A stretch of DNA of 64,000 bases from an uncultured bacterium (GCA_964387845.1 CAYLXA010000013.1:1-64000), one strand, 5' to 3'; shown: positions 15,359 through 41,189, numbered from the stretch's first letter. Notes: generated from the sequence alone by a model not told the origin. Program-made: numbers and translations.

Positions 15359-16786
15359 TTAAACGATCTGTGAGATCAAATCAAGAAGCGGCTGCTGGAA
15401 TACGCCAAGTAGTACAATTGCGGTCAGAATGCTAATTAAGCAAAACCGGATACCGGTTGGGACATGGATCAAATCCGGCGTCTCGGGCCGCTCGACGTAG
15501 ATTTGACGGATGACGGAGAGATAATAAAAAAGGGATATGACAACACCCAAAACGCCAACCAAGGCAAGCCACATCATGTTTTCTTGAATCACTGCCTGAA
15601 GCAGCATAAATTTAGCAAAAAAGCCGGCTAACGGTGGAATTCCGGCAAGTGACAACAGGGCAATAAACATAGATGCCGCTAAAAGAGGTGAGCGCGCTGC
15701 CAAACCACGCAACCCCGGAATCGATTCATTTTTAAGTGTTTTAGATACCAAAACGAGCGACATAAAAATCGCCAAATTCGCCAGAGCGTAAACCGGCAAG
15801 TAATACAAAACTGCTTGAACGCCCAATTTCGACCCTGCCGCGATTCCCATTAATAGGTAACCTGCATGGCTGATGCTGGAATATCCCAGTAAGCGTTTGA
15901 GACTGCCTTCAAGCTGAAGGAGGGCTCCCAAATTACCGTATAAAAGTGTTGCAGCAGACAGAAGAGCCATTAAAGGCATCCAGATCGGATTTAAATTGTC
16001 GGTGACGGCAAATAAAAATCGGAGCAATGCAGCAAATCCAATTCCTTTCGAAATCGTTGACAAGAACGCTACCGAAGGTGTCGGCGCTCCTTCATAAACA
16101 TCCGGCGCCCAGAGCTGAAACGGAAACGCGGCAATCTTAAACCCGATTCCTGCGATAACCAGGAAAAACCCAAGGAACAAAAAAGAACTTAAATGTGATG
16201 TGGTCTGTAAGTAAATCCGCAGGCTGTCGAATGAAAAACTCTCAGTAATTCCATAAATAAAACTGATTCCATAAATCATCAAAGCCGACGAAAAAAGGCC
16301 CATCAGAAGATACTTAGTTCCGGCTTCAACAGATCTGGTGTCGGTTCTGAGGAATGAGGTTAAAACATATAAGGAAAGCGTCGCCAGTTCGATGGTGATG
16401 AAAAGAGTGAGAAATCCGTTTGCGGAAGAAACGAATAAAGCGCCCAATAATGCTACCAGCAGAATTAAATAAAATTCACCGGCTCGGCTTTTAAAATAAA
16501 TATCGTATTCACGGCTCATGACCACGATGAGAAATGCACATAATATGAAAAATCCTTTCATGAAAATCGAAAAGCTGTCGATTAAAAAAGCGCCGCCAAG
16601 AATTGCCGTTGCTGTTGTTGGAATTTGGGTGGTGGTGATGAATAAAATTGCCAGGCCGAGCAATGTAAGTCTTGAAAGGGCGCCGCCGCCGGTTCTTCGT
16701 CCGCCGAAGCTCTCGATTAAAGTTAAGGCAGTTAATAGAATCAAAGTTCCAATTTCAACGGATAGCGGATGAAAAACAAAGGACAT
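15359..16786 (-). CDS. nuoN: NADH-quinone oxidoreductase subunit N (orphan cluster, copy 1)
   Basis: About 14 TM helices and a NuoN-type WAPDVYEGAPTP motif. Confidence 0.85.
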   Translation of the reverse strand: MSFVFHPLSVEIGTLILLTALTLIESFGGRRTGGGALSRLTLLGLAILFITTTQIPTTATAILGGAFLIDSFSIFMKGFFILCAFLIVVMSREYDIYFKSRAGEFYLILLVALLGALFVSSANGFLTLFITIELATLSLYVLTSFLRTDTRSVEAGTKYLLMGLFSSALMIYGISFIYGITESFSFDSLRIYLQTTSHLSSFLFLGFFLVIAGIGFKIAAFPFQLWAPDVYEGAPTPSVAFLSTISKGIGFAALLRFLFAVTDNLNPIWMPLMALLSAATLLYGNLGALLQLEGSLKRLLGYSSISHAGYLLMGIAAGSKLGVQAVLYYLPVYALANLAIFMSLVLVSKTLKNESIPGLRGLAARSPLLAASMFIALLSLAGIPPLAGFFAKFMLLQAVIQENMMWLALVGVLGVVISLFYYLSVIRQIYVERPETPDLIHVPTGIRFCLISILTAIVLLGVFQQPLLDLISQIV

Positions 16787-18309
16787 TAAAATTCCCCCTG
16801 ATGTGTTAGATCAACGCTTTTTTTAGCTTGGCTGATAATCGATTCAACTGTTGGCCGGATTGAATCCAGCAGAATCATCGGTTGTGTTCCGAAAAGAAGC
16901 AGCCAAATAAGCAAGAAACCGAACGGAAGCCGCGCCCAAAGCGTTTTTGCATCTTTCAAATTCGACCATTTTGGGTCCAATTTTCCGAAAAAGACATTCT
17001 TAACAAGGCGGAGCATGTAAACTGCCGTAATCACAATTCCAAAAATGGCGCCGATTGTTTGCCACCGGTAAGTTTCGAAACTGCCGAAAAAAATCAGAAT
17101 TTCTGAAGCAAAGTTGGCGAAACCGGGAAGTCCGCTCGATGCCAAAGCAGCCATGACAAAACATGTCGCAACAAACGGCATGATTTTGGCCAGTCCGCCA
17201 AGGTTTTCGATCTGTCGTGTATGGGTTTGATCATAAATGAAACCGATTAAAGCGAAACAAAGCGCTGCCATAACGCCGTGTGCAAACATAAAGAAGACCG
17301 TTCCGGTTAACGCTGTTTCGGTCATAGCGCTAAGGCCCAAAAGGGCGTAGCCCATGTGACTGACGCTCGCAAACCCAACCACAAACTTCAAATCCTTTTG
17401 GGCCATGGCCGCCCAGGCGCCATACAAAATATTGATCACGGCCAAAATTGAAATATAGGGAAGCCAAATCCGGGCACCTTCCGGCATGAGGCCCAGCAGA
17501 ATCCGGATGAGGGCGTAAATACCGATTTTTTTCAGAACGCCCGCATGGAGCATGCTGATGGGAGAAGGTGCTGCCGCATAACCGATCGGCGACCAGCTAT
17601 GGAACGGCCAGAGAGATGCGATAACACCAAATCCGAAAATAAAAAATGGCGCGCAGTACTTCTGGAATAAGACGGGAAGCGGTTGGATCGCAAGATAGTT
17701 CTGAATTTCGATCAAATCAAATGTGTAAAGCCCGGTCATTTGATAAAGTGCAAGCAGCCCAATCAAAGACATGACTGCGCCTGCCGTGATGTAAAGCGTG
17801 AGCTTCATTGCACCGTATTCTTTATTCGTGCTTCCCCAGATGGCGATTAAGGGGTACATCGGAATGACTGCCATTTCGTAAAAAAGGTATAAAAAGAAAA
17901 GATCGACGGCGGTAAATACACCAAAAAGACTTGCAATTAAAACCATCAGGAAAACAAAATACTCCTTCACTCTGGTTTCGATCGAAAAAGAAACCATGAC
18001 GGCTGCGAATGAGCAAATGGCGTTCAAAAGAATCATCACGCATCCGATTCCATCAATTCCGGCGTGATAAGAAATGCCGAAAGAGGGCAGCCATTCGGCT
18101 TTGAATAAAAATTGATATCCGGCGGTTTTGGCATCGTAAATCGAAAAGAGGTAAGCCGAAACCGCAAGCGTTGAAAGCGTAATCAGTGTTGCGATCCAGC
18201 GAATCAGCCGCTTGTTTTCCTTAGGCGTGAATCCGATCAAAAATGCGCCCAAAAGAGGCAGCCATGTTAAAGATGGGACAAGTAATTTGGTTGAGTTTAT
18301 GATTTCCAT
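16786..18309 (-). CDS. nuoM: NADH-quinone oxidoreductase subunit M-like (divergent, copy 1)
   Basis: Antiporter-like membrane subunit in the NuoM position. The usual WLPDAH..AP.P motif reads WSPIGYAAAPSP. Confidence 0.7.
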   Translation of the reverse strand: MEIINSTKLLVPSLTWLPLLGAFLIGFTPKENKRLIRWIATLITLSTLAVSAYLFSIYDAKTAGYQFLFKAEWLPSFGISYHAGIDGIGCVMILLNAICSFAAVMVSFSIETRVKEYFVFLMVLIASLFGVFTAVDLFFLYLFYEMAVIPMYPLIAIWGSTNKEYGAMKLTLYITAGAVMSLIGLLALYQMTGLYTFDLIEIQNYLAIQPLPVLFQKYCAPFFIFGFGVIASLWPFHSWSPIGYAAAPSPISMLHAGVLKKIGIYALIRILLGLMPEGARIWLPYISILAVINILYGAWAAMAQKDLKFVVGFASVSHMGYALLGLSAMTETALTGTVFFMFAHGVMAALCFALIGFIYDQTHTRQIENLGGLAKIMPFVATCFVMAALASSGLPGFANFASEILIFFGSFETYRWQTIGAIFGIVITAVYMLRLVKNVFFGKLDPKWSNLKDAKTLWARLPFGFLLIWLLLFGTQPMILLDSIRPTVESIISQAKKSVDLTHQGEF

Positions 18310-18312
18310 AAG

Positions 18313-20151
18313 CTATTGAATTAAAAACAAGTAAATGATAATGACAACACCACCCAAAAAGACAGTCAGGTAGTTTTGAATTTTTCCGGTCTGCAATTTT
18401 CGGGCCCAGCCGCCGAGCCTTGTAAAATTACGTGCAGTGCCGTTCACAAATCCTTCCACAATGGTTTCTTGCTCAAACCGGTTTAAAAAATGAGAGAAAG
18501 GCTTTTGGACGGATTCCAAAATCCAGTCATAAATTGAGTCGATATAGTACTTTTGTGTCAACAACCCGTAAGTATTTTTAAGTTTCTTCTTTATTTTTTG
18601 TGCGGTCCCTGGTTTTCTTAAATATACGTAAGTTGCTGAAAATAAACCACTTACAGAAATTAAAAAGGCCAATACAGGGATAACTTTATTGTGATGAACA
18701 TGAATATCATTCGGATGATGCAAGACCGATTCAATGCCAAAAAAGCCGGCTGTAATCGACAATACCGCAAGCAAAATCATCGGAAGCAGCATCCATTGTG
18801 CGGGTTCGTGGATTTTCTTCCGGCTGTGTGGCTTTCCAAAAAAAGTCATCACAACAGCGCGCGCGATGTAAAACGACGTCAAAAACGCGGTGAACAAGCT
18901 TACCCAAAAAAGGAGAGTGTTTCGTTCGAAAGCAAGCATCAGAATCTCGTCTTTGCTGAAAAATCCGCTCATCGGATAAATGCCGGCAAGTGCAAGCGAA
19001 CCGATCACGAACAGCCACGTCGTAACCGGCATTGATTTTGAAAGCCCGCCCATATTTTTCATGTCTTGCTCATGTGTAGCGTGCAGTACGCTGCCGGCCG
19101 CTAAAAAAAGGAGCGCTTTGAAAAAAGCATGCGTCGTTAAATGATACATGCCGACTCCGACACTGCCGAGCCCGATCGCTATGACCATGTAACCCAGCTG
19201 GCTTAAAGTAGAATAAGCCAGGACGCGCTTTAAATCCGTTTGGACGAGCGCAATCGTTGCCGAAAAAATCGCGGTGAATCCGCCGACATAAGCGATGACA
19301 GAAAGCGCATCTTGCGACAGAGAGAAAAGAAAAAATGTCCGAGCAAGCAAATAAACGCCTGCGGCCACCATTGTTGCTGCGTGAATCAAAGCACTGACGG
19401 GTGTCGGGCCTTCCATCGCATCCGGCAGCCACACGTGAAGCGGAAATTGTGCGGACTTTCCAAGAACGCCGCAAAAAATAGAAACAGCTGCTAAGAAAAT
19501 GAGAGATTCGTTTCCAAGGACTGCTTGCCCAAGGATATGTTCGAGCTTCAGAAAATTAAGCGTCCGCTCTCCGCTACGTCCCGACAAAATCCAAACCAAC
19601 AAAATACCGATCAAAAATCCGAAATCACCGACACGGTTTGTTAGGAATGCTTTTTTGCCGGCATCAGCAGCCGAATCCTTTTCGTACCAAAACCCGATTA
19701 AAAGATAAGAGCTGAGGCCGACCAGCTCCCAAAAGATAAATAGCTGAAGCAAGTTGTTACTGAGCACAATGCCAAGCATTGAAAAGGCAAAAAGAGAAAG
19801 GTAGGCAAAATAACGCGCAAATCCTGGGTCATCTTCCATGTATTCGATTGAATAATAGAAAACAGCGCTTCCGACGCCAGTCACGATCAAAAGCATAATG
19901 AGTGATACAGCATTAATCAAAATACCGAATTCAAGCACAAGGCCCGGAAGTCTGATCCAGGGAACCGATATTTCCAGGAATCCATGGCCGCCTTGCGAGA
20001 AAAATTCATAGGCGAAACTGCAAGAAATCAAAAAGGAGGCAAAAATGCCGGCAAAAGCTAAGGCGGCACTTAATTTCGGCCGGTTGAGCGTGAAAAACGT
20101 AATCAAAACCGCAGAAGCAAGCGGTAAAAATAATATAAGCCAGGGGTTCAT
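18313..20151 (-). CDS. nuoL: NADH-quinone oxidoreductase subunit L (copy 1)
   Basis: HVWLPDAMEGPTPVSALIHAATMVAAGVY signature and a C-terminal extension with a long helix, as in NuoL. Confidence 0.9.
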   Translation of the reverse strand: MNPWLILFLPLASAVLITFFTLNRPKLSAALAFAGIFASFLISCSFAYEFFSQGGHGFLEISVPWIRLPGLVLEFGILINAVSLIMLLIVTGVGSAVFYYSIEYMEDDPGFARYFAYLSLFAFSMLGIVLSNNLLQLFIFWELVGLSSYLLIGFWYEKDSAADAGKKAFLTNRVGDFGFLIGILLVWILSGRSGERTLNFLKLEHILGQAVLGNESLIFLAAVSIFCGVLGKSAQFPLHVWLPDAMEGPTPVSALIHAATMVAAGVYLLARTFFLFSLSQDALSVIAYVGGFTAIFSATIALVQTDLKRVLAYSTLSQLGYMVIAIGLGSVGVGMYHLTTHAFFKALLFLAAGSVLHATHEQDMKNMGGLSKSMPVTTWLFVIGSLALAGIYPMSGFFSKDEILMLAFERNTLLFWVSLFTAFLTSFYIARAVVMTFFGKPHSRKKIHEPAQWMLLPMILLAVLSITAGFFGIESVLHHPNDIHVHHNKVIPVLAFLISVSGLFSATYVYLRKPGTAQKIKKKLKNTYGLLTQKYYIDSIYDWILESVQKPFSHFLNRFEQETIVEGFVNGTARNFTRLGGWARKLQTGKIQNYLTVFLGGVVIIIYLFLIQ

Positions 20152-20155
20152 GCAG

Positions 20156-20455
20156 TTACCATTTTAATGTTGTGAGCGTTCCGGTATCGATTTTACCTTT
20201 TTGACGGAACAAAAGTACGGCGATCGCAAGCCCGATTGCAACTTCACTTGCTGCAATCGCAATAATAAAAAGAGCAGCGACCTGGCCGCCCAAGTGATTG
20301 CCGAAGCTCGAGAATGCAATGAACGATAAATTGACGGCATTCAGCATGATTTCAGCGGAAAGCAGCATCATAATTAAATTCGTGCGGCGAATCATGCCTA
20401 ACGCGCCGATCGTGAACAAAACACCGCTCAAGATTAAATAATGATGGAGCGTCAT
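20156..20455 (-). CDS. nuoK: NADH-quinone oxidoreductase subunit K (copy 1, both conserved Glu present)
   Basis: 99 aa, 3 TM helices, LSAEIMLNAV and AASEVAIGLAI. Confidence 0.85.
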   Translation of the reverse strand: MTLHHYLILSGVLFTIGALGMIRRTNLIMMLLSAEIMLNAVNLSFIAFSSFGNHLGGQVAALFIIAIAASEVAIGLAIAVLLFRQKGKIDTGTLTTLKW

Positions 20456-20949
20456 ACCTCTTTCCTCGTGAGTGAAATAACGCCAAGGATACCGACCAAA
20501 AGAACTAGCGACACGAGTTCAAATTGCAAAAGGTATTGGGAAAACAGAGTGCGCCCGACGCTTTCGATAGTTCCCAAAACAGATACGGATTTTAATTCGG
20601 TATTTGCCGAAGCATGGACAACGATCCAGATTTCAAGAAAAAAAGCGGTAATGACCGCATAAATCGTCAACCGCTTGAAGGATGAAGCCGTTTTTTGTCC
20701 CTCTTCGGATGTATTAACACCCATCAGCATCAGCATGAATAGGAAAAGAACCAAAATGGCACCCGCGTAAATTAAAATTTGAATAATGGCTACAAAATAA
20801 GCTTCAAGCAGCACAAAAAGACCGGAAAGGGAAAACATCGTAATGACAAGTGCGAGAACGCCTTGGGTCGGGCGTTTTGTGAAGACAACATAAAGAGCGC
20901 TTAAAATGGCGGCGGCCGAGAATAGATAAAACCAAAAAATTTGGGTCAT
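20452..20949 (-). CDS. nuoJ: NADH-quinone oxidoreductase subunit J (copy 1)
   Basis: 165-aa membrane protein in the position and of the length of NuoJ, upstream of nuoK. Confidence 0.75.
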   Translation of the reverse strand: MTQIFWFYLFSAAAILSALYVVFTKRPTQGVLALVITMFSLSGLFVLLEAYFVAIIQILIYAGAILVLFLFMLMLMGVNTSEEGQKTASSFKRLTIYAVITAFFLEIWIVVHASANTELKSVSVLGTIESVGRTLFSQYLLQFELVSLVLLVGILGVISLTRKEV

Positions 20950-20985: not shown

Positions 20986-21013
20986 AGTATAGCAAACTGT
21001 CTTTAAAAATCAA
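20986..21013 (-). promoter_or_regulatory. sigma70-like promoter TTGATT-16-TATACT (minus strand) for nuoJKLMN copy 1
   Basis: On the minus strand: -35 TTGATT (plus 21008-21013), -10 TATACT (plus 20986-20991), about 30 nt upstream of the nuoJ1 ATG. Confidence 0.45.
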
Positions 21014-21042: not shown

Positions 21043-21309
21043 CTAAGAGGAAGAGGAGGAGGAAACGAGAAAGGTGGCCTTATTTTTGTAGACTTCAAAA
21101 AAGCCATTGCCAACCTGATAGGCCAGTTCTTTTTGATTGGGTTCCCGGATTTTTAGTTTTCCGGGAACCGTTGTGGAAATGAGTCCTGCGTGATTGGCAA
21201 GAACGCCAAACGAACCCTTTTCGCCGGGCACAACAATGGATTCAACGGTGCCGGAATAAGCCCGGCCATCCTGCGTGATCAAATCCAATGTAAATGTAGG
21301 TACAGTCAT
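21043..21309 (-). CDS. atpC: F1 ATP synthase epsilon subunit, short form (beta-sandwich only) with a poly-Ser C-terminus
   Basis: 88 aa matching the epsilon N-terminal domain. No C-terminal helical hairpin. Ends SSSSSS. Confidence 0.8.
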   Translation of the reverse strand: MTVPTFTLDLITQDGRAYSGTVESIVVPGEKGSFGVLANHAGLISTTVPGKLKIREPNQKELAYQVGNGFFEVYKNKATFLVSSSSSS

Positions 21310-21320
21310 GATTTACAATT

Positions 21321-21393
21321 AGTTGTAAGTTTTAAGTTATAAGTGCTAAGTAAATCGAACTACTTACCACTTACAACTTATCACTTAACACTT
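21321..21393. repeat. GTAAGT-heptad hairpin R1 (atpD-atpC intergenic)
   Basis: Left arm of nnTAAGT heptads (21321-21352), right arm of inverted heptads (21361-21393). Confidence 0.7.
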
Positions 21394-21395
21394 GG

Positions 21396-22876
<1,481 letters not shown>

Positions 22877-22879
22877 CGG

Positions 22880-23749
22880 TTATTTAGCTTGCTGCGCTTT
22901 TGACCCGGATACAATTTCAATAAGTTCTTTTGTAATAGAAGCTTGCCTTGCTTTGTTGCGCTGCAAGGTAAGCGAATCGATCATTTCTTTGGCATTGTCG
23001 GTTGCTTGGCGCATGGCCATCATGCGCGAAAGCTGTTCGGACACCAACGCTTCTTTCAACGATTGTTCGACTTTTAATTCCAAAAAATGCGGAATCATGA
23101 CTTCCAAAATTCTTTCCGCTGCAGGCTCCAAGATGTAATCTTTGTCCGAATTTTTTTCGGATTTTTCAGACGGAATTTCCTGCAAAGGAAGCAGCTGTTC
23201 GACTTTTGGCTTATAAGACGACATCGAAATAAATTCCGTGTAAATCAGATATACTTGATCTACTTTTTTATTCAAAAATTCATTTTTCGCGGCATCTAAA
23301 ATTGCAGCCGCCGCTTTTTTGATTTCGGTCGGCCTCGGAATTCCGATTTCGCCCACAACATTGCGATTTTTACGCTTAAAATAACCAAGCCCCTGGCGGC
23401 CAATTGAGAAACAGGATACATTTTCTTTTCGGGAACCAAGAAAAGCCTCGGTTGTTTGAAGCAAATTGAAATTATAAGAGCCGCACAGCCCTGAATCCGA
23501 TGTCAGCAAAAAAACCAAGATATTCTCAGGTTCGCGCACATCAAAGAGCGGGTGATTAAACGACTTCACCTGCGTGCTGACTTTGCCCAAAATACGCCGC
23601 AGCTCACCGGCGTAAAGGCGCGTTTGCCCGAGGAGATCCTGATATTTCTTGAGCTTCGAAGCTGCCACCATTTCCATGGCTTTGGTGAGCTTTTTGGTGT
23701 TGTTGACACTTCGAATGCGCTGCTTAATCTGCCTTAAAGATTCAGCCAT
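22880..23749 (-). CDS. atpG: F1 ATP synthase gamma subunit
   Basis: 289 aa with conserved gamma N- and C-terminal helices (MAESLRQIKQRIRSV... and ...AQQAK). Confidence 0.9.
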   Translation of the reverse strand: MAESLRQIKQRIRSVNNTKKLTKAMEMVAASKLKKYQDLLGQTRLYAGELRRILGKVSTQVKSFNHPLFDVREPENILVFLLTSDSGLCGSYNFNLLQTTEAFLGSRKENVSCFSIGRQGLGYFKRKNRNVVGEIGIPRPTEIKKAAAAILDAAKNEFLNKKVDQVYLIYTEFISMSSYKPKVEQLLPLQEIPSEKSEKNSDKDYILEPAAERILEVMIPHFLELKVEQSLKEALVSEQLSRMMAMRQATDNAKEMIDSLTLQRNKARQASITKELIEIVSGSKAQQAK

Positions 23750-25255
23750 TTATTTTGCAAAATTCTGTTTGTGAGAAGTGATGGCTTGCGTGAGCTTTGA
23801 CTTCAACTCATCGTTCAGCACTTTCTCGGAATTAATTTTCATCGGAATGTCGGGATATTTTTGCTCGATAAATTCAACCAAACTGTTTACGAACGGCCCG
23901 ACCTTATCGATCGCTAGGTCATCCAAATGGCCTTCGGTGCCGGCAAAAATTGAAATAACCTGCCTGCTCAAAGGTTCCGGCGACAAAATATCCTGCTTTA
24001 AAATTTCAACCATCCGTTCGCCGTGCACGAGCTGCTGTTTGGTGGCTTTATCCAGGTCGGTCGAAAGCTGCGAAAATGCCGCAAGTTCGCGGTATTGCGC
24101 AAGACTCAAACGCAACATGCCGGCCACTTGTTTCATGGCTTTGGTTTGCGCGTTTCCGCCGACGCGTGAAACGGAAAGACCAACGTTAATCGCAGGACGA
24201 ATGCCGGAAAAAAAGAGGTCCGATTCCAGGTAAATCTGGCCGTCTGTAATCGAAATCACGTTTGTCGGAATATACGCCGAAACGTCACCAGCCTGTGTTT
24301 CGATAATTGGAAGCGCTGTGAGCGATCCGCCGCCCAACGATTGATGAACTTTTGATGCGCGCTCCAAAAGACGGGAGTGAAGATAAAAAACGTCTCCGGG
24401 ATACGCCTCGCGTCCGGGCGGGCGCTGCAGCAAGAGTGACAATTGGCGATATGCTTGCGCGTGTTTCGACAAATCGTCATAAATGCAAAGTGCGTGCTGC
24501 CCGCTGTACAAAAACTCTTCCGCCATAGCACAACCGCCGTAAGGCGCTAAATATTGCAACGGAGCAGGGTCTTCGGAAGCTGCGACAACGACTGTGGTGT
24601 ATTCCATCGCGCCGTATTTTTCGAGCGTGTTCACAATGCTCACAACACTCGACATTTTTTGGCCGATCGCGACATAAAAACAGAAAACGTTTTTACCTTT
24701 TTGATTAATGATGGTGTCGATCGCGATTGCAGTTTTTCCTGTCTGACGGTCACCGATGATGAGTTCGCGCTGGCCGCGTCCGATCGGAATCATGCCGTCG
24801 ATGGCCTTGATGCCCGTTTCGAGAGGTTCTTTCACAGGTTGGCGCTGAATAACGTTCGGCGGCATGAGTTCAATCGGCCGGAACTTATCCGTTACGATCG
24901 GCCCTTTGCCATCCAGGGGTTCTCCGAGAGGATTGACGACACGTCCCAAGAGGGCTTTGCCGGCCGGAACCTGTGCGATTTTGCCGGTCCGCTTAACCTG
25001 GCTGCCTTCTTTAATATTCTTGTCGGAACCCATAATCACGATACCGACGTTGTTCATTTCAAGGTTGAGAGCAAGGCCTTTCGTGCCGTCAGAAAACTCA
25101 ACAAGCTCAGAGGCCATGACGTCGTCAAGCCCGTAAGCGCGCGCAATGCCGTCGCCGACTTGAAGAACGTAACCCACCGAATCCATTTTGAGTTTGGATT
25201 CGAATTTCTCGATTTCTTTTTTAATTGCAAATGTGACTTCTTCTGGTTTTAACAT
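23750..25255 (-). CDS. atpA: F1 ATP synthase alpha subunit
   Basis: [19 protein letters not shown]-loop, 501 aa. Confidence 0.97.
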
Positions 25256-25270
25256 GACTTCTTTCCCGGG

Positions 25271-25816
25271 TTATGAATTTGATCCGATCATTTGTTGCTT
25301 TAATGAATCCAATTTAGCTCTGACAGAACCGTCAAACAACCGGTGACGGATTTGGACGTTGATGCCTCCCAAAATCGAAGGGTCTACCTTGATCTTCGAA
25401 ATTATTTTCTCGCCTATTTTCTTTTCTAAAATTTTTTCAAGCTGGCTTTTTAAATTTTCGCTTAAAGGTCTGGCAGTCGTAATTAAAACTTCTTCGAAAT
25501 GATTGCTCGCGTTTAAAAGCTCGTGATAACACTCTAAGATTTGATTTAAAATTTCAAACCGGCCCTTTTCCAAAAGGAGCGAGATGAATTCAATCGTGAG
25601 CGCGCTTAGTTTGCCGTGATTTGTTTTAGCAAGAAGCGATTTTTTTTCTTCAAACGAAATAATTGGATTTTTGAAGAATTGCGCAAATTGCTTATTGTTC
25701 TCGATGGCTCCCAGGAAGGCTTTCAGCTCTCCCTCAATCTTCAGCTCGGATTTGGATTGAGCTGCCAATTCAAACAACGCTTTGGCGTATCGGGAGGCAA
25801 GTGCGCGGTCTTTCAT
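25271..25816 (-). CDS. atpH: F1 ATP synthase delta subunit
   Basis: 181 aa in the OSCP/delta position between atpF and atpA. Confidence 0.8.
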   Translation of the reverse strand: MKDRALASRYAKALFELAAQSKSELKIEGELKAFLGAIENNKQFAQFFKNPIISFEEKKSLLAKTNHGKLSALTIEFISLLLEKGRFEILNQILECYHELLNASNHFEEVLITTARPLSENLKSQLEKILEKKIGEKIISKIKVDPSILGGINVQIRHRLFDGSVRAKLDSLKQQMIGSNS

Positions 25817-26331
25817 GACTCTACCAGCGGCCCTTTGGTTTCATCGAGTTCCTTGATGAAATCGATAATAAGCTGCTCATCCTTTTTGTCGGTGAGCTTG
25901 TCTTTAACGATCCGTTCAGTCGCGGAAAATGCAAGTCCCGCGATTTCCCGGCGCAAAGAAACATGCGCCTTGGCGGTTTCAAGCCGGATATCTTCCTTGG
26001 ATTTTTCAAGGATTTCCTTGGCTTGATTGCGCGCTTCATCCTGAAGCTGGCGCGATAGTTTTTTGCCTTCCTGGATTACTTGCTCCATTTTGGCGCGCGC
26101 TTCTTCTTCGATGTGGCGCAATTTGTCGTCGTAATCCGACTTCAATTTGGCCAGCTCTGCCTTGGTGGCATCAATTTCGCGAAATCCACCCTCAATTTTC
26201 TGTCTTCTGCCTTCGAGCATTGCCAAAACCGGTTTCCAGACTTTGGCTTTGAGAAACAGAAAAATGATGATGAATGCAAGAAGCTGAACAAAAACTTCTC
26301 TTAATTGAATATTCGCTGCGAAAAATTCCAT
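25813..26331 (-). CDS. atpF: Fo ATP synthase subunit b
   Basis: Single N-terminal TM helix followed by a long charged helix, 172 aa. Confidence 0.8.
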   Translation of the reverse strand: MEFFAANIQLREVFVQLLAFIIIFLFLKAKVWKPVLAMLEGRRQKIEGGFREIDATKAELAKLKSDYDDKLRHIEEEARAKMEQVIQEGKKLSRQLQDEARNQAKEILEKSKEDIRLETAKAHVSLRREIAGLAFSATERIVKDKLTDKKDEQLIIDFIKELDETKGPLVES

Positions 26332-26349
26332 GTCAAAGTTTCCGGCAGC

Positions 26350-26580
26350 TTAGATTTTTCCCATCAATGAAAAGCCAAACACGAGCGCATAAAGCGTCAA
26401 AGCTTCGATGAGTGCGCAGCCGGCCATCATGTTAACGAGAATCTTCGTAGAAGCTTCAGGCTGGCGTGCGGTCGCATCCATGGCGGCGGCAACGGCTTTT
26501 CCGAGCGCGAAAGCGGAAGCGAGCGCGGTAACGGCAAGCCCGAGGGGAAGTGCAAATGATAATGCAACTTGAGGTGTCAT
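26350..26580 (-). CDS. atpE: Fo ATP synthase subunit c
   Basis: 76-aa two-helix hairpin with the carboxylate Glu in CALIEALTLYAL. Confidence 0.85.
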   Translation of the reverse strand: MTPQVALSFALPLGLAVTALASAFALGKAVAAAMDATARQPEASTKILVNMMAGCALIEALTLYALVFGFSLMGKI

Positions 26581-26604
26581 GATTTTTATTCTCCTTTATT
26601 TTGG

Positions 26605-27465
26605 TTAATGAGCGTGCGCCGCTTCGGCAGCATGCCCGTGGTGATGATCTTCATGAGGTAAAACAAGTGAAATATACACCGTTGAAAGCAGCATAAACAC
26701 AAACGCCTGCACCATGCTGAACGCAATCGCAAGCACGTTGGCGAATATTTGCAGCAGGAACGGTATTCCCTTAAATAAAACGTTTAACTCCGCAAATTTA
26801 AAAAGCAGTTTGTCTTCGCTGGAAACGTTTGCAAATAAACGAAGCGACAAACTCAGGGGCACGGCAACAAACTCGACTGAAAGATTAATAACGAGCATGA
26901 GCGGAATTAAAATGTAGCCAAACAAATTAGAAGGATTTCCGGCCACATGCTTCAAATAATGCACCGGGCCTTGTGCGCGGATTCCGGTCCATTGAACGTA
27001 AGCGGTTGTGAATATTGCAAGCGCCGCGGTAGTTCCCCAAACCGCCGTTGAAGATTTCATCAGAGGCACTAAACCGCTCCAGTTCATGAGAAGAATGTAA
27101 ATAAAAACGGTCCCTAAAAAAGGCACATGCTCGCGGCCCCGGTCTCCGAGAATTCCGGTGACGAAGGTTTCGATGCCTTCAACGAATAATTCCACAAAAT
27201 TTTGGATGCCTTTCGGGATGAAGCTTGCTTTTCGGACTGCCGCAACGCCGACGAAAATAATCAATGCCGCCGCTGTCATCGAGAAAATAACGTTTTCCCA
27301 GCGGTGCAGGAAATGAACGATTTCAGAATCCGGGAAAGTGTTGTTGAGTACGGTAATTAGATTGGCAAGCTCATGATGCGCTTCACCGTGATGGGCGCCG
27401 GCCGCTGCGTGATGAACGGCTTCGGCTGCATGTTCGGCGTGACTTGCGACTTCGTGTTCCGTCAT
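26605..27465 (-). CDS. atpB: Fo ATP synthase subunit a with His-rich N- and C-terminal tails
   Basis: Conserved LSLRLFANV (essential Arg) and 5 TM helices. N-terminal HAEHAAEAVHHAAAGAHHGEAHHE and C-terminal HEDHHHGHAAEAAHAH. Confidence 0.85.
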   Translation of the reverse strand: MTEHEVASHAEHAAEAVHHAAAGAHHGEAHHELANLITVLNNTFPDSEIVHFLHRWENVIFSMTAAALIIFVGVAAVRKASFIPKGIQNFVELFVEGIETFVTGILGDRGREHVPFLGTVFIYILLMNWSGLVPLMKSSTAVWGTTAALAIFTTAYVQWTGIRAQGPVHYLKHVAGNPSNLFGYILIPLMLVINLSVEFVAVPLSLSLRLFANVSSEDKLLFKFAELNVLFKGIPFLLQIFANVLAIAFSMVQAFVFMLLSTVYISLVLPHEDHHHGHAAEAAHAH

Positions 27466-35540: not shown

Positions 35541-36977
35541 TTAGATTGCGAAGAAATTGACGAGTGCGACCTGGACGAAGGAAATCACGCTGGAAGGAAA
35601 AAGGCCGATTGCGACGGTTCCAAAAAGCGCCACAACAACGCAGGCAATCGCCAAATTGGAAGCCGTAACCGGTGAATGTTTGTCGCTGTGCGTGAGGTAC
35701 ATCGCGCGGACAATTTTGAAATAATAAACCGCTGCGATGGCGCTGTTGATGGCGGCTGCAACTGCGAGCATGATGAAACTATGCTGAATCGCACTCGCAA
35801 ACACAAACCATTTTCCGATAAATCCCGCAAGCGGTGGAATTCCGGCCAAAGACAACATAAAAATCAGCATGCAGGCCGCTAAAAATGGATTTCGTTTAGA
35901 AAGGCCGTTTAACGCCTCAATGCGGCTTGAGCCCTCGCTCTCCTCAATGGCGGCAAGCGTCAAAAAAGCGCCCATATTGGTAAAGATGTAGGTGATGATA
36001 TAAATGAAAACTGCTTCAACGCCGGTTCCTGAGGCCGTGGCAAGTCCCATTAATATGTAGCCGGCTTGCGCAACGCTGGAATAGGCCAAAAGGCGTTTGG
36101 CACTGGCCTGAGAGACAGCCGTGATGTTGCCGATCGTCATAGTCAAAATGGAAAGCACAACCAAAATCGAGCTCCATTCGGCGTGGAAATTTTGAAAAGC
36201 GCTGAATAAAACACGGCAGATCACCAAAAAGCCAATGCCTTTCGGTGCGACGGTCAAAAACGCCGCAATCGGTGTCGGCGCACCTTCATAAACATCCGGC
36301 GCCCAGGCATGAAACGGCACGGATGAAATCTTGAATCCGAATCCGACCAACAGGAACACAAGCGCTACCTTTGCCGTGGCGATGATGGAAGGGCTTGCGG
36401 CTTTAAAAACGGCGTTCATTTGCGTGAGCTCTAACGTTCCCGTGAGGCCAAACAAAATCGACATGCCGAAAAGCATGCAGGCTGATGAAACGCCGCCGAA
36501 GAGAAGGTACTTGAGTGATGCTTCGCTCGAGCGTTTATCGAATTTACGGAAACCGGTCAATATATAGGAAGACAGCGAAACCGATTCGATCGCGAGGAAA
36601 ATCATCAGCAAATTGGTGGTAGAACCCATCAAAACGAGCAGGAATAGCAGAAAAGTGACCAAGAAATAGAATTCTCCCTTTTGCTTTTCCGGAATCAGTT
36701 TGGATTGAATCACGGAAGCGATGGCAAGGCTTGTCGCAATCGCAAGGCCGATCTGGAGAAAATAGCTGAACACATCGTAATAAAAGAGCCCCGAAAAAAG
36801 CGACATGGCTTTTTGCGGATAAGGCAAAAGCCAGAGGGAAACCGTAATGCCGATGAGCGCAATGAGGCCGTTCACTTTTTGTTCGAGGCCAAAAAGATCG
36901 AGCACCAAAACAAGCAGTGCAGCGCCAATTAAGACGGCGTGCGGAATAAAATACGGTAAGCTCGCGAGTGCGTCCAT
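35541..36977 (-). CDS. nuoN: NADH-quinone oxidoreductase subunit N (copy 2)
   Basis: HAWAPDVYEGAPTPIAAF motif, 478 aa. Confidence 0.88.
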   Translation of the reverse strand: MDALASLPYFIPHAVLIGAALLVLVLDLFGLEQKVNGLIALIGITVSLWLLPYPQKAMSLFSGLFYYDVFSYFLQIGLAIATSLAIASVIQSKLIPEKQKGEFYFLVTFLLFLLVLMGSTTNLLMIFLAIESVSLSSYILTGFRKFDKRSSEASLKYLLFGGVSSACMLFGMSILFGLTGTLELTQMNAVFKAASPSIIATAKVALVFLLVGFGFKISSVPFHAWAPDVYEGAPTPIAAFLTVAPKGIGFLVICRVLFSAFQNFHAEWSSILVVLSILTMTIGNITAVSQASAKRLLAYSSVAQAGYILMGLATASGTGVEAVFIYIITYIFTNMGAFLTLAAIEESEGSSRIEALNGLSKRNPFLAACMLIFMLSLAGIPPLAGFIGKWFVFASAIQHSFIMLAVAAAINSAIAAVYYFKIVRAMYLTHSDKHSPVTASNLAIACVVVALFGTVAIGLFPSSVISFVQVALVNFFAI

Positions 36978-36978
36978 A

Positions 36979-38448
36979 TTACATTAAACTTCCGATTTGG
37001 GCCAAAAGCGCGTTCATGCTCGGCGTCATCACATCAAGAATCAGTTTTGGATAAACGCCCAGGACTAAAATAATCACCATGAGCGGAATAATCGTAAAAA
37101 GCTCGCGCGCGTTGATATCCGTCAGTTTTTCCCACTTCTGGTTAAACGGCCCGAGCAATACTTTTTGAATCATGTAAAGCAGGTAGCAGGCAGCCAAGAG
37201 GATTCCGATGCAGGAAATTCCGGTGATCCAGGGATAAATTTTGAATGCGCCGAGCAATACCATAAATTCACTGACGAAACCGCTCAGGCCCGGCAAACCC
37301 ATCGAAGCGAACGTTACAAAAATCAAAACGCCCGAATAAACACTCATTTTCACACCCAAGCCGCCGAAGGCGTTCATGTCGCGTGTATGAGCGCGGTCAT
37401 ATAAAACACCAACCAGCAAGAAGAGCGCGCCGGTGATGGTTCCGTGGTTGAACATTTGAAGCATGGCGCCGTTTAAGCCGTTTTGCGTAAAAACCGCGAG
37501 GCCCAACAGCACAAAACCCATGTGGCTGACGCTGGAATAAGCGACCATTTTTTTGAAATCGGTTTGCGCAAACGCTACGAATCCGCCGTAAACGATTCCG
37601 ATTGCAGCCAAAATGCCCATCGCAAGCGAAAACCAATGTGCCCCAAGCGGCAAAATCGGATAGCTGATCCTGAAAAATCCGTAGGTCCCCATTTTAAGAA
37701 GCACGGCCGCCAGAATCACGCTGATCGGTGTCGGCGCTTCAACGTGCGCATCCGGAAGCCACGTGTGGAACGGGAAAACCGGGACTTTGATCGCAAACCC
37801 GAGGAAAAACGCGAGAAAAATGATTTTTTGGAATTCCAAGCTAAAGGAATTGTTGCGGAGCGCGATCATGTCAAACGTATGCGGCGTGCTCGAGAAAAAG
37901 AGCGCCAAAATACCCAGCAGCATGAACAAACTTCCGGCCAATGTGTAAATAAAAAACTTAATTGCCGCATATTCTTTGCGCGGTCCGCCCCAGATGCCGA
38001 TCAGGAAATACATCGGAACCAGCACCACTTCCCAAAAAACGTAAAAAAGGAAAAGATCGAGAGACAAAAATGTGCCGAACATACCGGTTTCAAGCAACAA
38101 ATAAAGCGCGAAGTATTCTTTTACGCGGTCTTTGATGCCGTAACTTGCGACACAAGCCAGAAGGGAAATCAAGCCGGTGAGGAAAATCATCGTTACGCTG
38201 ATGCCGTCGATTCCGAGTGAATAAAAAACGTTCAACGGCTCGATCCAGCTGATTTTTTCCGCAAATTGAATGCCGGTGTTGGCGGAGTCAAAGTTAAGCG
38301 TGACGTAAGTCGTGAGCAGAAACACGACTGCGCTAACCGACGTTGCGATGGTCCGGATTAATTTTGTGTTTTCCTTCGGCGCGAGCATCGTCAAAATCAT
38401 GCCGACGACCGGCAAAAATATAATGGAAGACAGAATTGGAAAATTCAT
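36979..38448 (-). CDS. nuoM: NADH-quinone oxidoreductase subunit M (copy 2)
   Basis: HTWLPDAHVEAPTPISVILAAVLLKMGTYG motif. Confidence 0.9.
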   Translation of the reverse strand: MNFPILSSIIFLPVVGMILTMLAPKENTKLIRTIATSVSAVVFLLTTYVTLNFDSANTGIQFAEKISWIEPLNVFYSLGIDGISVTMIFLTGLISLLACVASYGIKDRVKEYFALYLLLETGMFGTFLSLDLFLFYVFWEVVLVPMYFLIGIWGGPRKEYAAIKFFIYTLAGSLFMLLGILALFFSSTPHTFDMIALRNNSFSLEFQKIIFLAFFLGFAIKVPVFPFHTWLPDAHVEAPTPISVILAAVLLKMGTYGFFRISYPILPLGAHWFSLAMGILAAIGIVYGGFVAFAQTDFKKMVAYSSVSHMGFVLLGLAVFTQNGLNGAMLQMFNHGTITGALFLLVGVLYDRAHTRDMNAFGGLGVKMSVYSGVLIFVTFASMGLPGLSGFVSEFMVLLGAFKIYPWITGISCIGILLAACYLLYMIQKVLLGPFNQKWEKLTDINARELFTIIPLMVIILVLGVYPKLILDVMTPSMNALLAQIGSLM

Positions 38449-38462
38449 CGAGTAAATCTCCT

Positions 38463-40373
38463 TTATTTAAAAACTCCGTAAAGAATCCACAAAATTCCGA
38501 CAAAAACGAAAAATAGATAATGATGGATAAATCCGGTTTGGAAAAGCCGCAGCACGGAACTCAAAGTTTGCGTGATCCATCCCGTAAAGTTCACCAAGCC
38601 GTCAACGATATGCTGATCGATCCAAAATTTTACCCGAGCACTCCATTTGCCGAAGCGGCCCGTATCATTCACGATGCGGTCGACAACTTTTTGATCGAAT
38701 TGAAATAAGAAATCCGCCTTCCATTGAAATAAGCGGCCGAATGTGGCGCTATAAATTTCATCGAAATAAAGTTTGTTGAGAGAAACCGTGTAAAGCGGTT
38801 TCAGGCTTTGTGCGATTTTAGCCGGAATGTCGGTTCTCACCAGATAAAACACGTAAGCCATTACAGCACCTAGAGTTGCAACAACTATCGATAGAATCAT
38901 CAGCGTGTAATTTGGATGAATTTCCTCCGGATGGCCGCCGTGCAAAAAGGTTTGAAACCAATGATGCATGAAAGGCGAACCGGGAATACCGGCACCGACC
39001 GCAAACACAGCCAAAATCATCAAAGGAACCGTCATCGACGCAGGGGATTCGTGCGCGTGAATGTGGCCGCGTGTTTTTCCGAAGAAAGTCAAAAATGTGA
39101 GCCGGAACATGTAAAAGGAAGTTAAAAATGCAGTGATAACAAGCAGCGCCAAGATAACGTAATGCCCGGACTCGTAAGCGCTGAGCAGAATTTCATCTTT
39201 GCTCCAAAATCCGGCAAACGGCGGAATGCCTGCGATTGCGATTGTCGCGATTAAAAATGTCCACGCCGTTTTCGGCATATGCTTGAACAGCCCGCCCATT
39301 TCACGAATGTCCTGCGTACCTGTGCCGTGAATCACGGAACCGGCGCCCAAAAAGAGCAGTGCTTTGAAAAACGCGTGCGTCATTAAATGAAAAGAGCCGG
39401 CGCTGAATCCTCCGCAGCCCAAAGCTGCGATCATATAACCAAGCTGAGAAATCGTTGAATAGGCGAGCACTTTTTTAATATCCGTTTGCGTCAGTGCAAT
39501 AAAAGCACCGATGCAAGCGGTTGTGGTTCCGATAACAGCCACAACGTCAGCGGAATTTGGAAACGCTTCATAAAGCGGCGTGAGGCGCGCAACCATGTAA
39601 ACGCCTGCGGCCACCATTGTCGCGGCGTGAATCAAAGCACTGACGGGTGTCGGGCCTTCCATCGCATCCGGAAGCCATACGTGAAGCGGAAACTGCGCCG
39701 ATTTTCCGATGGCACCGCAAAAGAGGAAAATTCCGGCAATTCCGACAATCCAGGCATTGTGATGATGGAAGAAGTCGTGATTGAAATCCGCGAAAAGTAC
39801 GGTCCCGGTGGAATAAAAAAGAAGTGCAATGCCGATGAAAAATCCGACGTCGCCGATCCGGTTTGTGATAAACGCTTTCTTGCTGGCGTCAGAAGCGGAT
39901 TTCTTTTCAAACCAGAATCCGATCAAAAAGTAAGAGCAAAGGCCGACAAGCTCCCAGAAAATATACATTTGGACAAGATTGGTTGCGAGCACAAGGCCGA
40001 GCATCGAAAATAAAAAGAGCGCCAAGTAAGCGAAAAAGCGCGAATACCGCGCATCTTCATGCATGTAGCCTGTCGAGTAAATCACGATGAGTGAGCCGAT
40101 GAATGTGACGACAAAAAGCATCATCGCGGTCAAAGGATCCACCATAAATCCGAATTGAAGCGCTTTAGCGCCGAAGGGAAGCCAGTCAAAATTGATGAGA
40201 ATCGTCTCGCCTTTCAGAACCGGCTGAATGACGATCATCGACAAAATAAAAGAACCGACGCTGGCTGCGATGGTGACGAGCGAGGCTTTGTGCTTCAGCG
40301 TTTTTCCGAAGAAAATATTAATCGTAAACGCCGCGAGCGGAAGTAATGGAATTAAAGCGAGTTGAGTTACCAT
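38463..40373 (-). CDS. nuoL: NADH-quinone oxidoreductase subunit L (copy 2)
   Basis: HVWLPDAMEGPTPVSALIHAATMVAAGVY motif, 636 aa. Confidence 0.92.
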   Translation of the reverse strand: MVTQLALIPLLPLAAFTINIFFGKTLKHKASLVTIAASVGSFILSMIVIQPVLKGETILINFDWLPFGAKALQFGFMVDPLTAMMLFVVTFIGSLIVIYSTGYMHEDARYSRFFAYLALFLFSMLGLVLATNLVQMYIFWELVGLCSYFLIGFWFEKKSASDASKKAFITNRIGDVGFFIGIALLFYSTGTVLFADFNHDFFHHHNAWIVGIAGIFLFCGAIGKSAQFPLHVWLPDAMEGPTPVSALIHAATMVAAGVYMVARLTPLYEAFPNSADVVAVIGTTTACIGAFIALTQTDIKKVLAYSTISQLGYMIAALGCGGFSAGSFHLMTHAFFKALLFLGAGSVIHGTGTQDIREMGGLFKHMPKTAWTFLIATIAIAGIPPFAGFWSKDEILLSAYESGHYVILALLVITAFLTSFYMFRLTFLTFFGKTRGHIHAHESPASMTVPLMILAVFAVGAGIPGSPFMHHWFQTFLHGGHPEEIHPNYTLMILSIVVATLGAVMAYVFYLVRTDIPAKIAQSLKPLYTVSLNKLYFDEIYSATFGRLFQWKADFLFQFDQKVVDRIVNDTGRFGKWSARVKFWIDQHIVDGLVNFTGWITQTLSSVLRLFQTGFIHHYLFFVFVGILWILYGVFK

Positions 40374-41178: not shown

Positions 41179-41189
41179 AAATTCCTTAT

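What the first reader, a model, noticed from the sequence alone, without database searches (positions are those of the whole stretch)
15359..20949. Orphan second copy of nuoJKLMN with its own promoter, directly downstream of the ATP synthase operon
A partial complex-I cluster contains only the membrane-arm subunits J, K, L, M and N. It sits immediately after atpC on the same strand and has its own TTGATT-16-TATACT promoter at 20986-21013. The paralogues are old: NuoK1 and NuoK2 are only about 40% identical. NuoM1 carries WSPIGYAAAPSP where the canonical WLPDAH..APTP motif sits; copy 2 is canonical. This suggests an alternative proton-pumping module that could swap into the single Q-module and nuoA-I encoded 20 kb away, or serve an Mrp-like antiporter role.
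Basis: partly seen in the sequence, partly recalled or inferred. Interest (0 to 1): 0.6.

Follow-up and report, generated by a model that had tools for sequence, protein, structure and literature searches.

The report
Separate complex I membrane-arm gene cluster
A second, separately transcribed set of the five membrane-arm genes of respiratory complex I (nuoJKLMN) sits after the ATP synthase genes of an Omnitrophota-like bacterium; it is most likely the detached half of a second complex I, and it is not a new kind of ion pump.

Summary
nuoJ-K-L-M-N lie tightly packed on the minus strand, 93 nt after atpC. They are 31-43% identical to the J-N genes of the complete 11-gene nuo operon further upstream.

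- **Functional and independent.** dN/dS is 0.04-0.08. The proteins are complex-I-type, not Mrp-type. A promoter box is conserved in relatives, where opposite-strand genes separate the cluster from atpC.
- **Conserved neighbourhood.** The atp...nuoJKLMN...porin arrangement recurs in at least nine related contigs.
- **The NuoM motif is ordinary.** It marks a very large NuoM subfamily that lacks the TM7 lysine. That subfamily supplies the sole NuoM of ordinary nuoA-N operons in many phyla.
- **Likely partner.** In more distant Omnitrophota this J-N lineage lies beside a nuoBCD-E/F-G-H-I module. In a Glassbacteria MAG the two are contiguous. The best reading is therefore the distal half of a split second complex I, with its proximal half outside the window. 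I could not search the rest of the genome, so this is unproven.
- **Unexpected.** The 'canonical' operon's NuoL carries the 26-residue lateral-helix insertion typical of four-pump '2M' complexes, yet that operon has one nuoM. The missing NuoM type is the one encoded in the orphan cluster, so subunit sharing stays open.

The parts
20452..20949 (-). nuoJ, orphan copy (165 aa)
   Evidence: PF00499 at 2.1e-34. The only solved-structure hits are NuoJ/ND6/NdhG chains. It is 31% identical to the main-operon NuoJ.
20156..20455 (-). nuoK, orphan copy (99 aa); both membrane glutamates are present
   Evidence: PF00420 at 1.9e-27. The only solved-structure hits are NuoK/ND4L chains. The SAEIML and ASEVAI motifs are present. 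It is 38% identical to the main-operon NuoK.
18313..20151 (-). nuoL, orphan copy (612 aa), with a lateral helix of normal length for a three-pump arm
   Evidence: PF00662, PF00361 and PF06455. It aligns end to end with E. coli NuoL, T. thermophilus Nqo12 and NdhF1. Its lateral-helix segment is 32 residues, as in 82 one-M operons. The TM5 Glu, TM7 Lys, TM8 His and TM12 Lys-Asp motifs are present.
16786..18309 (-). nuoM, orphan copy (507 aa), of the subfamily without the TM7 lysine ('M*')
   Evidence: PF00361. The best solved-structure hits are NuoM of Paracoccus (269 bits) and E. coli (243 bits), against about 139 bits for MrpD. Ile stands at the E. coli K234 position, WSPIGY replaces WLPDAH, and a new His appears in SMLHAG. 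The motif is nearly invariant across the homologues.
15359..16786 (-). nuoN, orphan copy (475 aa)
   Evidence: PF00361. It is 36% identical to the main-operon NuoN but only 24-27% identical to the L and M paralogues. The TM5 Glu, TM7 Lys, TM8 Lys and TM12 Lys motifs are present.
20986..21013 (-). sigma-70-like promoter of the orphan cluster (TTGATT-16-TgcTATACT)
   Evidence: Consensus scan. The box is conserved in position and sequence upstream of nuoJ in L002, L004, L006, L008 and L090.
17560..17622 (-). TM7 region of the orphan NuoM: Ile230 at the position of the conserved lysine, then HSWSPIGYAAAPSP
   Evidence: Alignment to E. coli NuoM 3rko_M. Column analysis of 114 NuoM ORFs from the fetched loci and the window. 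Coordinates.
21043..27465 (-). F1Fo ATP synthase operon atpB-E-F-H-A-G-D-C directly upstream (context, not part of the unit)
   Evidence: Pfam hits; the c subunit ORF is at 26350-26580. In relatives, one to six opposite-strand genes lie between atpC and nuoJ.
35541..45739 (-). main 11-gene operon nuoA-B-C-D-I-H-J-K-L-M-N, with no nuoEFG
   Evidence: Pfam hits. The same gene order and content occur in L092, L093 and L094 at 50-83% identity.
38604..38681 (-). 26-residue insertion (DRIVNDTGRFGKWSARVKFWIDQHIV) in the lateral helix of the main-operon NuoL, of the kind found in four-pump '2M' complexes
   Evidence: Alignment with NuoL of 2M and 1M operons. Census of 125 NuoL ORFs. There are 34 query residues where solved NdhF1 has 8. 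Coordinates.

Best explanation
The five genes encode a complete, ordinary three-pump distal membrane arm of a complex-I-type enzyme: NuoJ and NuoK, then NuoN, NuoM and NuoL with a lateral helix of normal length. They are transcribed from their own promoter. The cluster belongs to a J-N lineage that several Omnitrophota keep as a gene block separate from the proximal genes. The most likely reading is that it is the distal half of a second, split complex I. Its proximal half (nuoA-B-C-D-E/F-G-H-I, the NADH-oxidising and quinone-reducing part plus NuoA/H) would be encoded outside this window. Assembled, that enzyme would pump protons like any complex I. The position after the ATP synthase operon is conserved gene order, not co-transcription.

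Shown: gene identity, independence as a transcription unit, purifying selection, complex-I type, and the pairing seen in relatives. Inferred: that this genome has the partner module.
For: 1. **Identity.** Pfam and solved-structure matches are all complex I / NDH-1. The proton-path residues of L, N and K are present.
2. **Function.** dN/dS against the 83%-identical relative L002 is 0.04-0.08 for all five genes.
3. **Own transcription unit.** The promoter box is conserved. Opposite-strand genes lie between atpC and nuoJ in L002, L004, L006, L008, L090 and L091.
4. **Partner in relatives.**
   - In L003 (GCA_023818695.1) and L019 the orthologous J-N block (NuoM 49-53% identical) is convergent with nuoB/C-D-E/F-G-H-I, with one gene in between (ubiE-like in L003, a CPA2-like transporter in L019).
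   - In L013 (Glassbacteria) the order is contiguous: CD-E-F-G-H-I-J-K-L-M-N.
   - Those A-I proteins are only 34-40% identical to the window's A-I, so they are a different lineage.
5. **Split encoding occurs elsewhere in this A-I lineage.** L173 (Omnitrophica) has A-B-C-D...EF-G-H-I with no J-N after nuoI. L172 has its J-N block upstream of nuoA.
6. **Self-consistent arm.** The cluster has one M and a short lateral helix, as do 82 of 82 one-M operons.
Against: - No second nuoA-I was seen for this genome or for any member of the atp-linked clade. The window (64 kb of an 89.5-kb contig) holds only one.
- The NCBI contig is not in the position index.
- The NuoD search seeded from L003 was swamped by 74-84% identical sequences from other lineages, including ones named Acidobacteria and Acidimicrobiia. 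None lay on a contig of the window's clade.
- The main operon appears to have a vacant fourth pump position that the orphan NuoM type could fill. That hints at an interaction between the two sets.
Confidence: 0.5

Rival explanations
1. Subunit or module sharing with the main operon. The organism has only one nuoA-I set. The orphan cluster either supplies its M*-type NuoM to fill the fourth pump position implied by the extended lateral helix of the main-operon NuoL, or its whole J-N arm docks on the same NuoA/H and Q-module as an alternative arm. Sharing of NuoM alone could also hold alongside the best explanation.
For: - The main-operon NuoL has the 26-residue lateral-helix insertion. Its segment is 52 residues against 27-32 in 82 one-M operons.
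- The 34 long-helix loci whose L-M-M-N region could be read all carry two M genes (K-type plus M*). L110 is included from its gene map, because the automatic typing missed one of its Ms.
- The only clear exceptions with a contiguous L-M-N are the window and its relatives L092, L093 and L094.
- The insertion is kept between window and L092, whose NuoL proteins are 64% identical.
- The only M*-type gene in the window is in the orphan cluster.
- Both gene sets co-occur in the same two datasets (Ga0209515 and OBEQ01) at matching divergence: orphan M 68% and L 61%; main M 72% and L 64%.
- No relocated 2M-type M* turned up on contigs of the clade (a weak negative).
- A-I and J-N modules have changed partners in evolution. 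L172 and L003 share A-I (61-78% identical) but have different J-N modules.
Against: - The orphan cluster carries its own J, K, L and N, all under the same strong constraint as M. That is unnecessary if only M were borrowed.
- Orphan NuoM groups with the sole-M proteins of one-M arms, not with the M* of 2M operons.
- Relatives show that this J-N lineage has its own A-I partner.
- Lateral-helix insertions without an extra pump gene are already reported in 'Ca. Manganitrophaceae' (PMC9040806), so the insertion need not mean a filled slot.
- No physical evidence exists.
Confidence: 0.27
2. A stand-alone Mrp-like cation/proton antiporter built from J, K, L, M and N alone. It would work beside the ATP synthase to interconvert or balance ion gradients.
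For: - J, K, L, M and N are the homologues of the MrpA/C/D core (established knowledge; Mrp structure paper PMC7419157, listed).
- The cluster keeps a conserved position next to the atp operon in at least nine loci.
- No partner A-I was seen.
Against: - Solved-structure scores favour complex I over Mrp. NuoM scores 269 bits against 139 for MrpD. NuoL scores 424 against 234 for MrpA. J and K have no Mrp hit at E <= 1e-3.
- No MrpB/E/F/G-like genes are in or beside the cluster.
- The same lineage is linked to nuoA-I in L003, L019 and L013.
- The ATP synthase c subunit reads as proton-type: Ala and Leu follow the carboxylate Glu where Na+-binding c subunits have Ser/Thr. This is my reading and was not tested.
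- The atp link is not operonic in relatives.
Confidence: 0.08
3. A decaying or silent remnant of a lost second complex I.
For: No partner genes lie in the window. Some Omnitrophota lineages are described as host-dependent with reduced genomes (PMC10066038).
Against: - All five reading frames are intact and tightly coupled.
- dN/dS is 0.04-0.08.
- The catalytic residues are kept.
- The promoter is conserved.
- The cluster is retained across a clade whose NuoM identity falls to 51-57% (L010, L016).
Confidence: 0.03

Closest known systems
Split or rearranged complex I gene sets, with proximal (nuoA-I) and distal (nuoJ-N) genes in separate blocks. Examples here: L003, L019, L173 and the L172 arrangement. 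L172's two MrpD-like proteins in place of NuoL fit the description of rhizobial 'green complex I' quoted in PMC9040806. Chloroflexi 2M operons with nuoBCDI encoded apart are described in PMC7117926.
   Same: The J-N block is an independent unit. The orphan proteins are 43-54% identical to the J-N block that lies beside nuoB-I in L003.
   Different: No partner A-I is visible here. The block instead sits after the ATP synthase operon, in a genome that also has a complete 11-gene nuo operon.
2M complex I of Nitrospira and Chloroflexi (Chadwick et al. 2018, as cited in PMC9040806 and PMC7117926)
   Same: The main-operon NuoL has the same roughly 26-residue lateral-helix insertion. Its closest A-I relatives (L099, L174) are 2M operons with the same D-I-H gene order. 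The orphan NuoM belongs to the same broad lysine-less subfamily as the second M of 2M operons.
   Different: The main operon has one nuoM, not two. The orphan NuoM clusters with the sole-M proteins of one-M arms and comes with its own J, K, L and N.
Multiple complex I versions of 'Ca. Manganitrophaceae', where NuoL insertions occur without an extra pump gene (PMC9040806)
   Same: Several complex I gene sets in one genome. A lateral-helix insertion occurs in a NuoL whose own cluster lacks the extra pump subunit.
   Different: A different phylum. There the other sets are complete operons. No J-N-only cluster next to atp is described in the passages I read.
Cyanobacterial NDH-1 variants that share one core and exchange NdhD/NdhF paralogues (from my own knowledge; solved entries 6hum and 6tjv appear)
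   Same: Paralogous antiporter-like subunits are encoded away from the core genes. This is a possible model for alternative membrane modules on one core.
   Different: In cyanobacteria only the NdhD and NdhF equivalents are exchanged, with CupA/CupS partners. Here J and K are duplicated too, and no Cup-like genes are present.
Mrp multisubunit cation/proton antiporter
   Same: Homologous core: MrpA resembles NuoL (+J), MrpC resembles NuoK, and MrpD resembles NuoM/N.
   Different: There are no MrpB/E/F/G genes. Sequence similarity is clearly higher to complex I.

Membership tests
Complex I (NDH-1) distal membrane arm, NuoJ/K/L/M/N | Domain composition: PF00499, PF00420, and three PF00361 proteins, one of them with PF00662 and the NuoL C-terminus | tested here: met
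Complex I (NDH-1) distal membrane arm, NuoJ/K/L/M/N | Closer in sequence to complex I / NDH-1 subunits than to Mrp or MBH subunits | tested here: met
   M scores 269 bits against 139, and L 424 against 234. J and K hit only complex I chains.
Complex I (NDH-1) distal membrane arm, NuoJ/K/L/M/N | Conserved charged residues of the proton path: TM5 Glu and TM7/TM8/TM12 Lys in L, M and N, plus two Glu in NuoK | tested here: inconclusive
   All are present in L, N and K. NuoM lacks the TM7 Lys (Ile230) but keeps the TM5 Glu, TM8 Lys and TM12 Glu. The same loss marks the sole NuoM of many complete operons, so it does not argue against membership.
Complex I (NDH-1) distal membrane arm, NuoJ/K/L/M/N | NuoL lateral helix plus C-terminal anchor helix, with a length matched to the number of pump subunits | tested here: met
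   End-to-end alignment with solved NuoL/Nqo12/NdhF1. The helix segment is 32 residues, as in all 82 one-M operons.
Complex I (NDH-1) distal membrane arm, NuoJ/K/L/M/N | A dedicated proximal module (NuoA, NuoH, NuoB/C/D/I) encoded in the same genome | not testable with these tools
   Only one A-I set is in the window. The genome could not be retrieved. Relatives L003, L019 and L013 have one.
Mrp-type antiporter | MrpB, MrpE, MrpF and MrpG subunits, and an MrpA with its extra C-terminal domain | tested here: not met
   The cluster has five genes, flanked by atpC and a BBP2 porin gene. NuoL is 612 aa and aligns end to end with NuoL.
2M (four-pump) complex I - asked of the main operon at 35541-45739 | A roughly 26-residue insertion in the NuoL lateral helix | tested here: met
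   The definition is taken from PMC9040806.
2M (four-pump) complex I - asked of the main operon at 35541-45739 | Two nuoM genes between nuoL and nuoN | tested here: not met
   L, M and N are contiguous, with a 14-nt gap and a 1-nt gap. The same holds in L092-L094.

The most novel reading that the evidence does not exclude
In this Omnitrophota clade the main 11-subunit enzyme may be a four-pump ('2M'-type) complex I that has lost its own second NuoM gene. It would then borrow the lysine-less NuoM, or alternately the whole J-N arm, from the separately transcribed cluster beside the ATP synthase genes. Two complex I gene sets would then share subunits in trans.
Probability: 0.2. Interest if true: 0.7.

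Novelty: new member of a known kind. Interest (0 to 1): 0.4.

Why it matters
If the best reading is right, this is an ordinary second complex I with split genes. Its main use is as an annotation warning. Marker-based surveys that count NuoD or whole operons will mis-score such genomes. A lysine-less NuoM should not be read as a defective or exotic pump.

The less likely reading would matter more. It would be a natural case of pump subunits exchanged between complex I gene sets. That bears on how the number of pump modules, and so the H+/e- ratio, is tuned, and on how modular this enzyme family really is.

The data already show evolutionary re-pairing of proximal and distal modules. They also show a clade-wide '2M' NuoL without a second nuoM.

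Tried and rejected
**Finding the source genome**
1. Looking up the orphan NuoM by exact sequence returned only a 5-kb Logan contig. The NCBI contig of 89,520 bp is not in the position index.
It did not return this genome. It did yield 80 useful operon contexts.

**Finding a second nuoA-I in the clade**
3. A NuoD search seeded from L003 listed only 74-84% identical sequences, some named Omnitrophica, Acidobacteria or Acidimicrobiia. None lay on a contig whose length matched a contig of the window's clade.
It did reveal the L092-L094 and 2M relatives.
5. Cluster look-ups gave no accession numbers that tie proteins to samples.

**Finding a relocated 2M-type second NuoM**
6. One search found none on clade contigs. 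Only the best 120 hits are listed, so this is a weak negative.

**Literature**
7. I found no description of a nuoJKLMN-only cluster in Omnitrophota.

**Readings considered and rejected**
8. A Na+-coupled ATP synthase linked to an antiporter: the c subunit lacks the Ser/Thr of the Na+ site (my reading).
9. A pseudogene remnant.
10. The 'odd NuoM motif means a new function' argument.


Full report
**Anatomy**

The minus strand between 15359 and 20949 carries five tightly packed genes. Pfam identifies them as NuoJ, NuoK, NuoL (with the N-terminal and C-terminal NuoL domains) and two further PF00361 proteins. By pairwise comparison those two are the M and N paralogues. The junctions are a 4-nt overlap, 4-nt and 3-nt gaps, and a 1-nt overlap.

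atpC ends 93 nt upstream on the same strand, and the whole F1Fo operon precedes it. Downstream, a BBP2 porin gene converges on nuoN.

A complete 11-gene operon, nuoA-B-C-D-I-H-J-K-L-M-N, lies at 45739..35541 with no nuoEFG. The two J-N sets are 31-43% identical.

**Source organism**

The orphan NuoM has no named exact match. Its homologues at 52-63% identity that carry a name are labelled Candidatus Omnitrophica, with a few labelled Chlamydiae. A single-cell genome of Ca. Omnitrophus fodinae has the same neighbourhood (L010). A 3628-aa beta-helix protein next to nuoA fits the very long proteins reported for this phylum (bioRxiv 10.64898/2026.06.07.730766). Omnitrophota is therefore an inference, not a demonstrated assignment.

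**Is the cluster real, functional and independent?**

- Against the 83%-identical relative L002, dN/dS is 0.04-0.08 for all five genes. dS is saturated, so these are rough values.
- The proton-path residues of NuoL, NuoN and NuoK are all present.
The raw count of promoter-like sites is not above shuffles.
- The same box, (c)TT(t/g)ATTT-N16/17-GCTATACT, stands at the same distance from nuoJ in five relatives.
- In L002, L004, L006, L008, L090 and L091, one to six genes on the opposite strand lie between atpC and nuoJ.

The cluster is therefore its own transcription unit. Its position after atp is conserved synteny (atp, nuoJKLMN, porin; at least nine loci), not an operon link. Read-through from atpC in this genome is not excluded, because no terminator was found in the gap.

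**What kind of proteins are these?**

Against all solved structures:
- The orphan NuoM scores 269 and 243 bits on Paracoccus and E. coli NuoM, against about 139 on MrpD and MbhH.
- NuoL scores 424 bits on NdhF1 and 331-371 on E. coli and T. thermophilus NuoL, aligned end to end, against 234 on MrpA.
- NuoJ and NuoK hit only complex I and NDH-1 chains.
- No MrpB/E/F/G genes are present.

This is a complex-I-type arm, not an Mrp system.

**The NuoM motif**

Aligned to E. coli NuoM, the orphan protein has Ile at K234, WSPIGY for WLPDAH, Ala for the following acidic or polar residue, and a new His in TM8 (SMLHAG). E144, K265 and E407 are kept.

This is not a private oddity. The motif is almost invariant across the homologues inspected. 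It occurs in many of the 150 closest 50%-identity cluster representatives. It marks the only NuoM of contiguous nuoA-N operons in Neomoorella, Desulfosporosinus, Dehalococcoidia, Deltaproteobacteria, Planctomycetota, Verrucomicrobiota and others. It also marks the second M of Nitrospira and Chloroflexi 2M operons. The motif says which NuoM subfamily this is. It does not say the gene has a new role.

**Who is the partner?**

- In L003 (an Omnitrophica MAG, 697-kb contig) the orthologous J-N block plus a ubiE-like gene converges on nuoB-C-D-EF(fused)-G-H-I.
- L019 (Omnitrophota) has the same convergent layout, with separate E and F.
- L013 (Glassbacteria) has CD-E-F-G-H-I-J-K-L-M-N in one row.
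- These proximal proteins are only 34-40% identical to the window's A-I, so they are a different complex I lineage.
- Split encoding recurs in that lineage. L173 has A-B-C-D...EF-G-H-I with nothing after nuoI. L172 has its J-N block upstream of nuoA.

By homology, the orphan cluster is most simply the distal half of such a split enzyme.

I could not verify this for the genome itself. Every capped route to the rest of the genome failed. I therefore give this reading a confidence of 0.5.

**An unexpected feature of the 'canonical' operon**

Its NuoL (636 aa) has a 26-residue insertion, residues 565-590, that looks like a tandem duplicate of the D-x-x-V-D-G-x-V-N stretch of the lateral helix. Against solved NdhF1, 34 query residues stand where the structure has 8.

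In a census of 125 NuoL ORFs from the fetched loci, the helix segment is bimodal:
- 27-32 residues: 82 proteins, all from operons with one nuoM.
- 52-56 residues: 43 proteins.

Of the long class, the 34 loci whose L-M-M-N region could be read have two Ms, a K-type followed by the lysine-less type. This count includes L110, whose two Ms are seen. The exceptions are:
- The window and its relatives L092, L093 and L094, where L, M and N are contiguous.
- L161, whose insertion has a different sequence.
- Cases cut by a contig end or by an inserted restriction-modification-like cassette.

The closest proximal-gene relatives outside the clade (L099: NuoD 75%; L174) share the unusual D-I-H order and are intact 2M operons.

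The literature describes this insertion as the adaptation that lets NuoL span four pump subunits. It also notes NuoL insertions without an extra pump gene in 'Ca. Manganitrophaceae' (PMC9040806).

So the main operon looks like a 2M enzyme that has lost its second, lysine-less NuoM, and the only such NuoM in the window is the orphan one. Both gene sets co-occur in two other datasets at matching divergence.

Arguments against simple borrowing:
- The orphan NuoM groups with sole-M proteins of one-M arms.
- It comes with equally constrained J, K, L and N.

I treat subunit or module sharing as the main rival (0.27). It could hold alongside the split-operon reading.

**Modularity in evolution**

- L172 and L003 share proximal genes (61-78% identical) but carry different distal modules. 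L172 has two MrpD-like proteins in place of NuoL and a K-type NuoM.
- The window's proximal genes are closest to L099. Its NuoM is closest to L118 (64% over a partial ORF) and to Anaerolineae 2M operons.

The boundary between nuoI/H and nuoJ thus appears to be a recurrent break point. That makes re-pairing plausible over evolutionary time. It does not show physiological swapping.

**Verdict**

The finding is a real, conserved and functional gene cluster of a known kind. The swap idea is untested and less likely than a split second complex I. Interest is moderate, mainly because of the 2M-type NuoL with a single nuoM in the neighbouring operon.

Noticed in passing
window 38463-40373 (insertion at 38604-38681), within the operon 35541-45739: The main-operon NuoL has the 26-residue lateral-helix insertion typical of four-pump 2M complex I, but the operon has a single nuoM. 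The same holds in relatives L092-L094. The 34 other long-helix loci that could be read have two nuoM genes.
   Followed up: yes
window 41190-42927; also L087, L099, L103, L110, L111, L123, L126, L174: The gene order is nuoD-nuoI-nuoH instead of the usual D-H-I. This order is shared with a group of 2M-type operons.
   Followed up: partly
NuoM alignment of the fetched loci (for example window 16786-18309, L003, L029, L038): Within the lysine-less NuoM subfamily two positions co-vary. His at the E. coli H248 position goes with Met before the TM8 Lys ('GH...LMK'). Tyr goes with Lys ('GY...LKK'), as in the window.
   Followed up: no
L172 1253-16413 (ENA ERZ25039547 contig_935): The order is nuoJ-K, then two MrpD-like proteins (487 and 587 aa) with a 62-aa ORF between them, then M and N, directly upstream of nuoA-B-C-D-EF-G-H-I. 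The proximal genes are 61-78% identical to those of Omnitrophica L003, but the distal module is different. The layout resembles descriptions of 'green complex I'.
   Followed up: partly
window 45891-56777 (-): A 3628-aa ORF with beta-helix, bacterial TSP3, PKD-like and other repeat domains lies directly upstream of nuoA. L099 also has a 1490-aa ORF before nuoA, but the two show no detectable similarity.
   Followed up: partly
window 31110-35336 (-): A trehalose gene cluster (glycosyltransferase family 20/OtsA-like, trehalose phosphatase, DUF5752, TreT-like synthase) lies between the ATP synthase region and the main nuo operon.
   Followed up: no
window 27462-31103 (-): Upstream of atpB lie a 147-aa ORF with no Pfam match (possibly an AtpI-like protein), a CitMHS/ArsB-type transporter and a Na+/H+ exchanger with a TrkA-N domain. 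L174 also has an ArsB/CitMHS gene directly before nuoA.
   Followed up: no
L008, L090, L091 (about 15.0-17.8 kb in each locus): Relatives carry a TLC-family ATP/ADP translocase-like gene (about 810 aa) a few genes beyond the porin next to the nuoJKLMN cluster. The window has no such gene at that place.
   Followed up: no
L139 16529-19101: A cassette with restriction-modification-like (HsdS-like, by eye) and unrelated ORFs follows nuoM in an otherwise normal operon with a long-helix NuoL. It apparently interrupts the operon before the remaining distal genes.
   Followed up: no
window 60776-62503 (+), 63087-63455 (-): A nitrite/sulfite reductase-family gene and a 23S rRNA intervening-sequence protein (bAvd-like) gene lie near the window end.
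   Followed up: no
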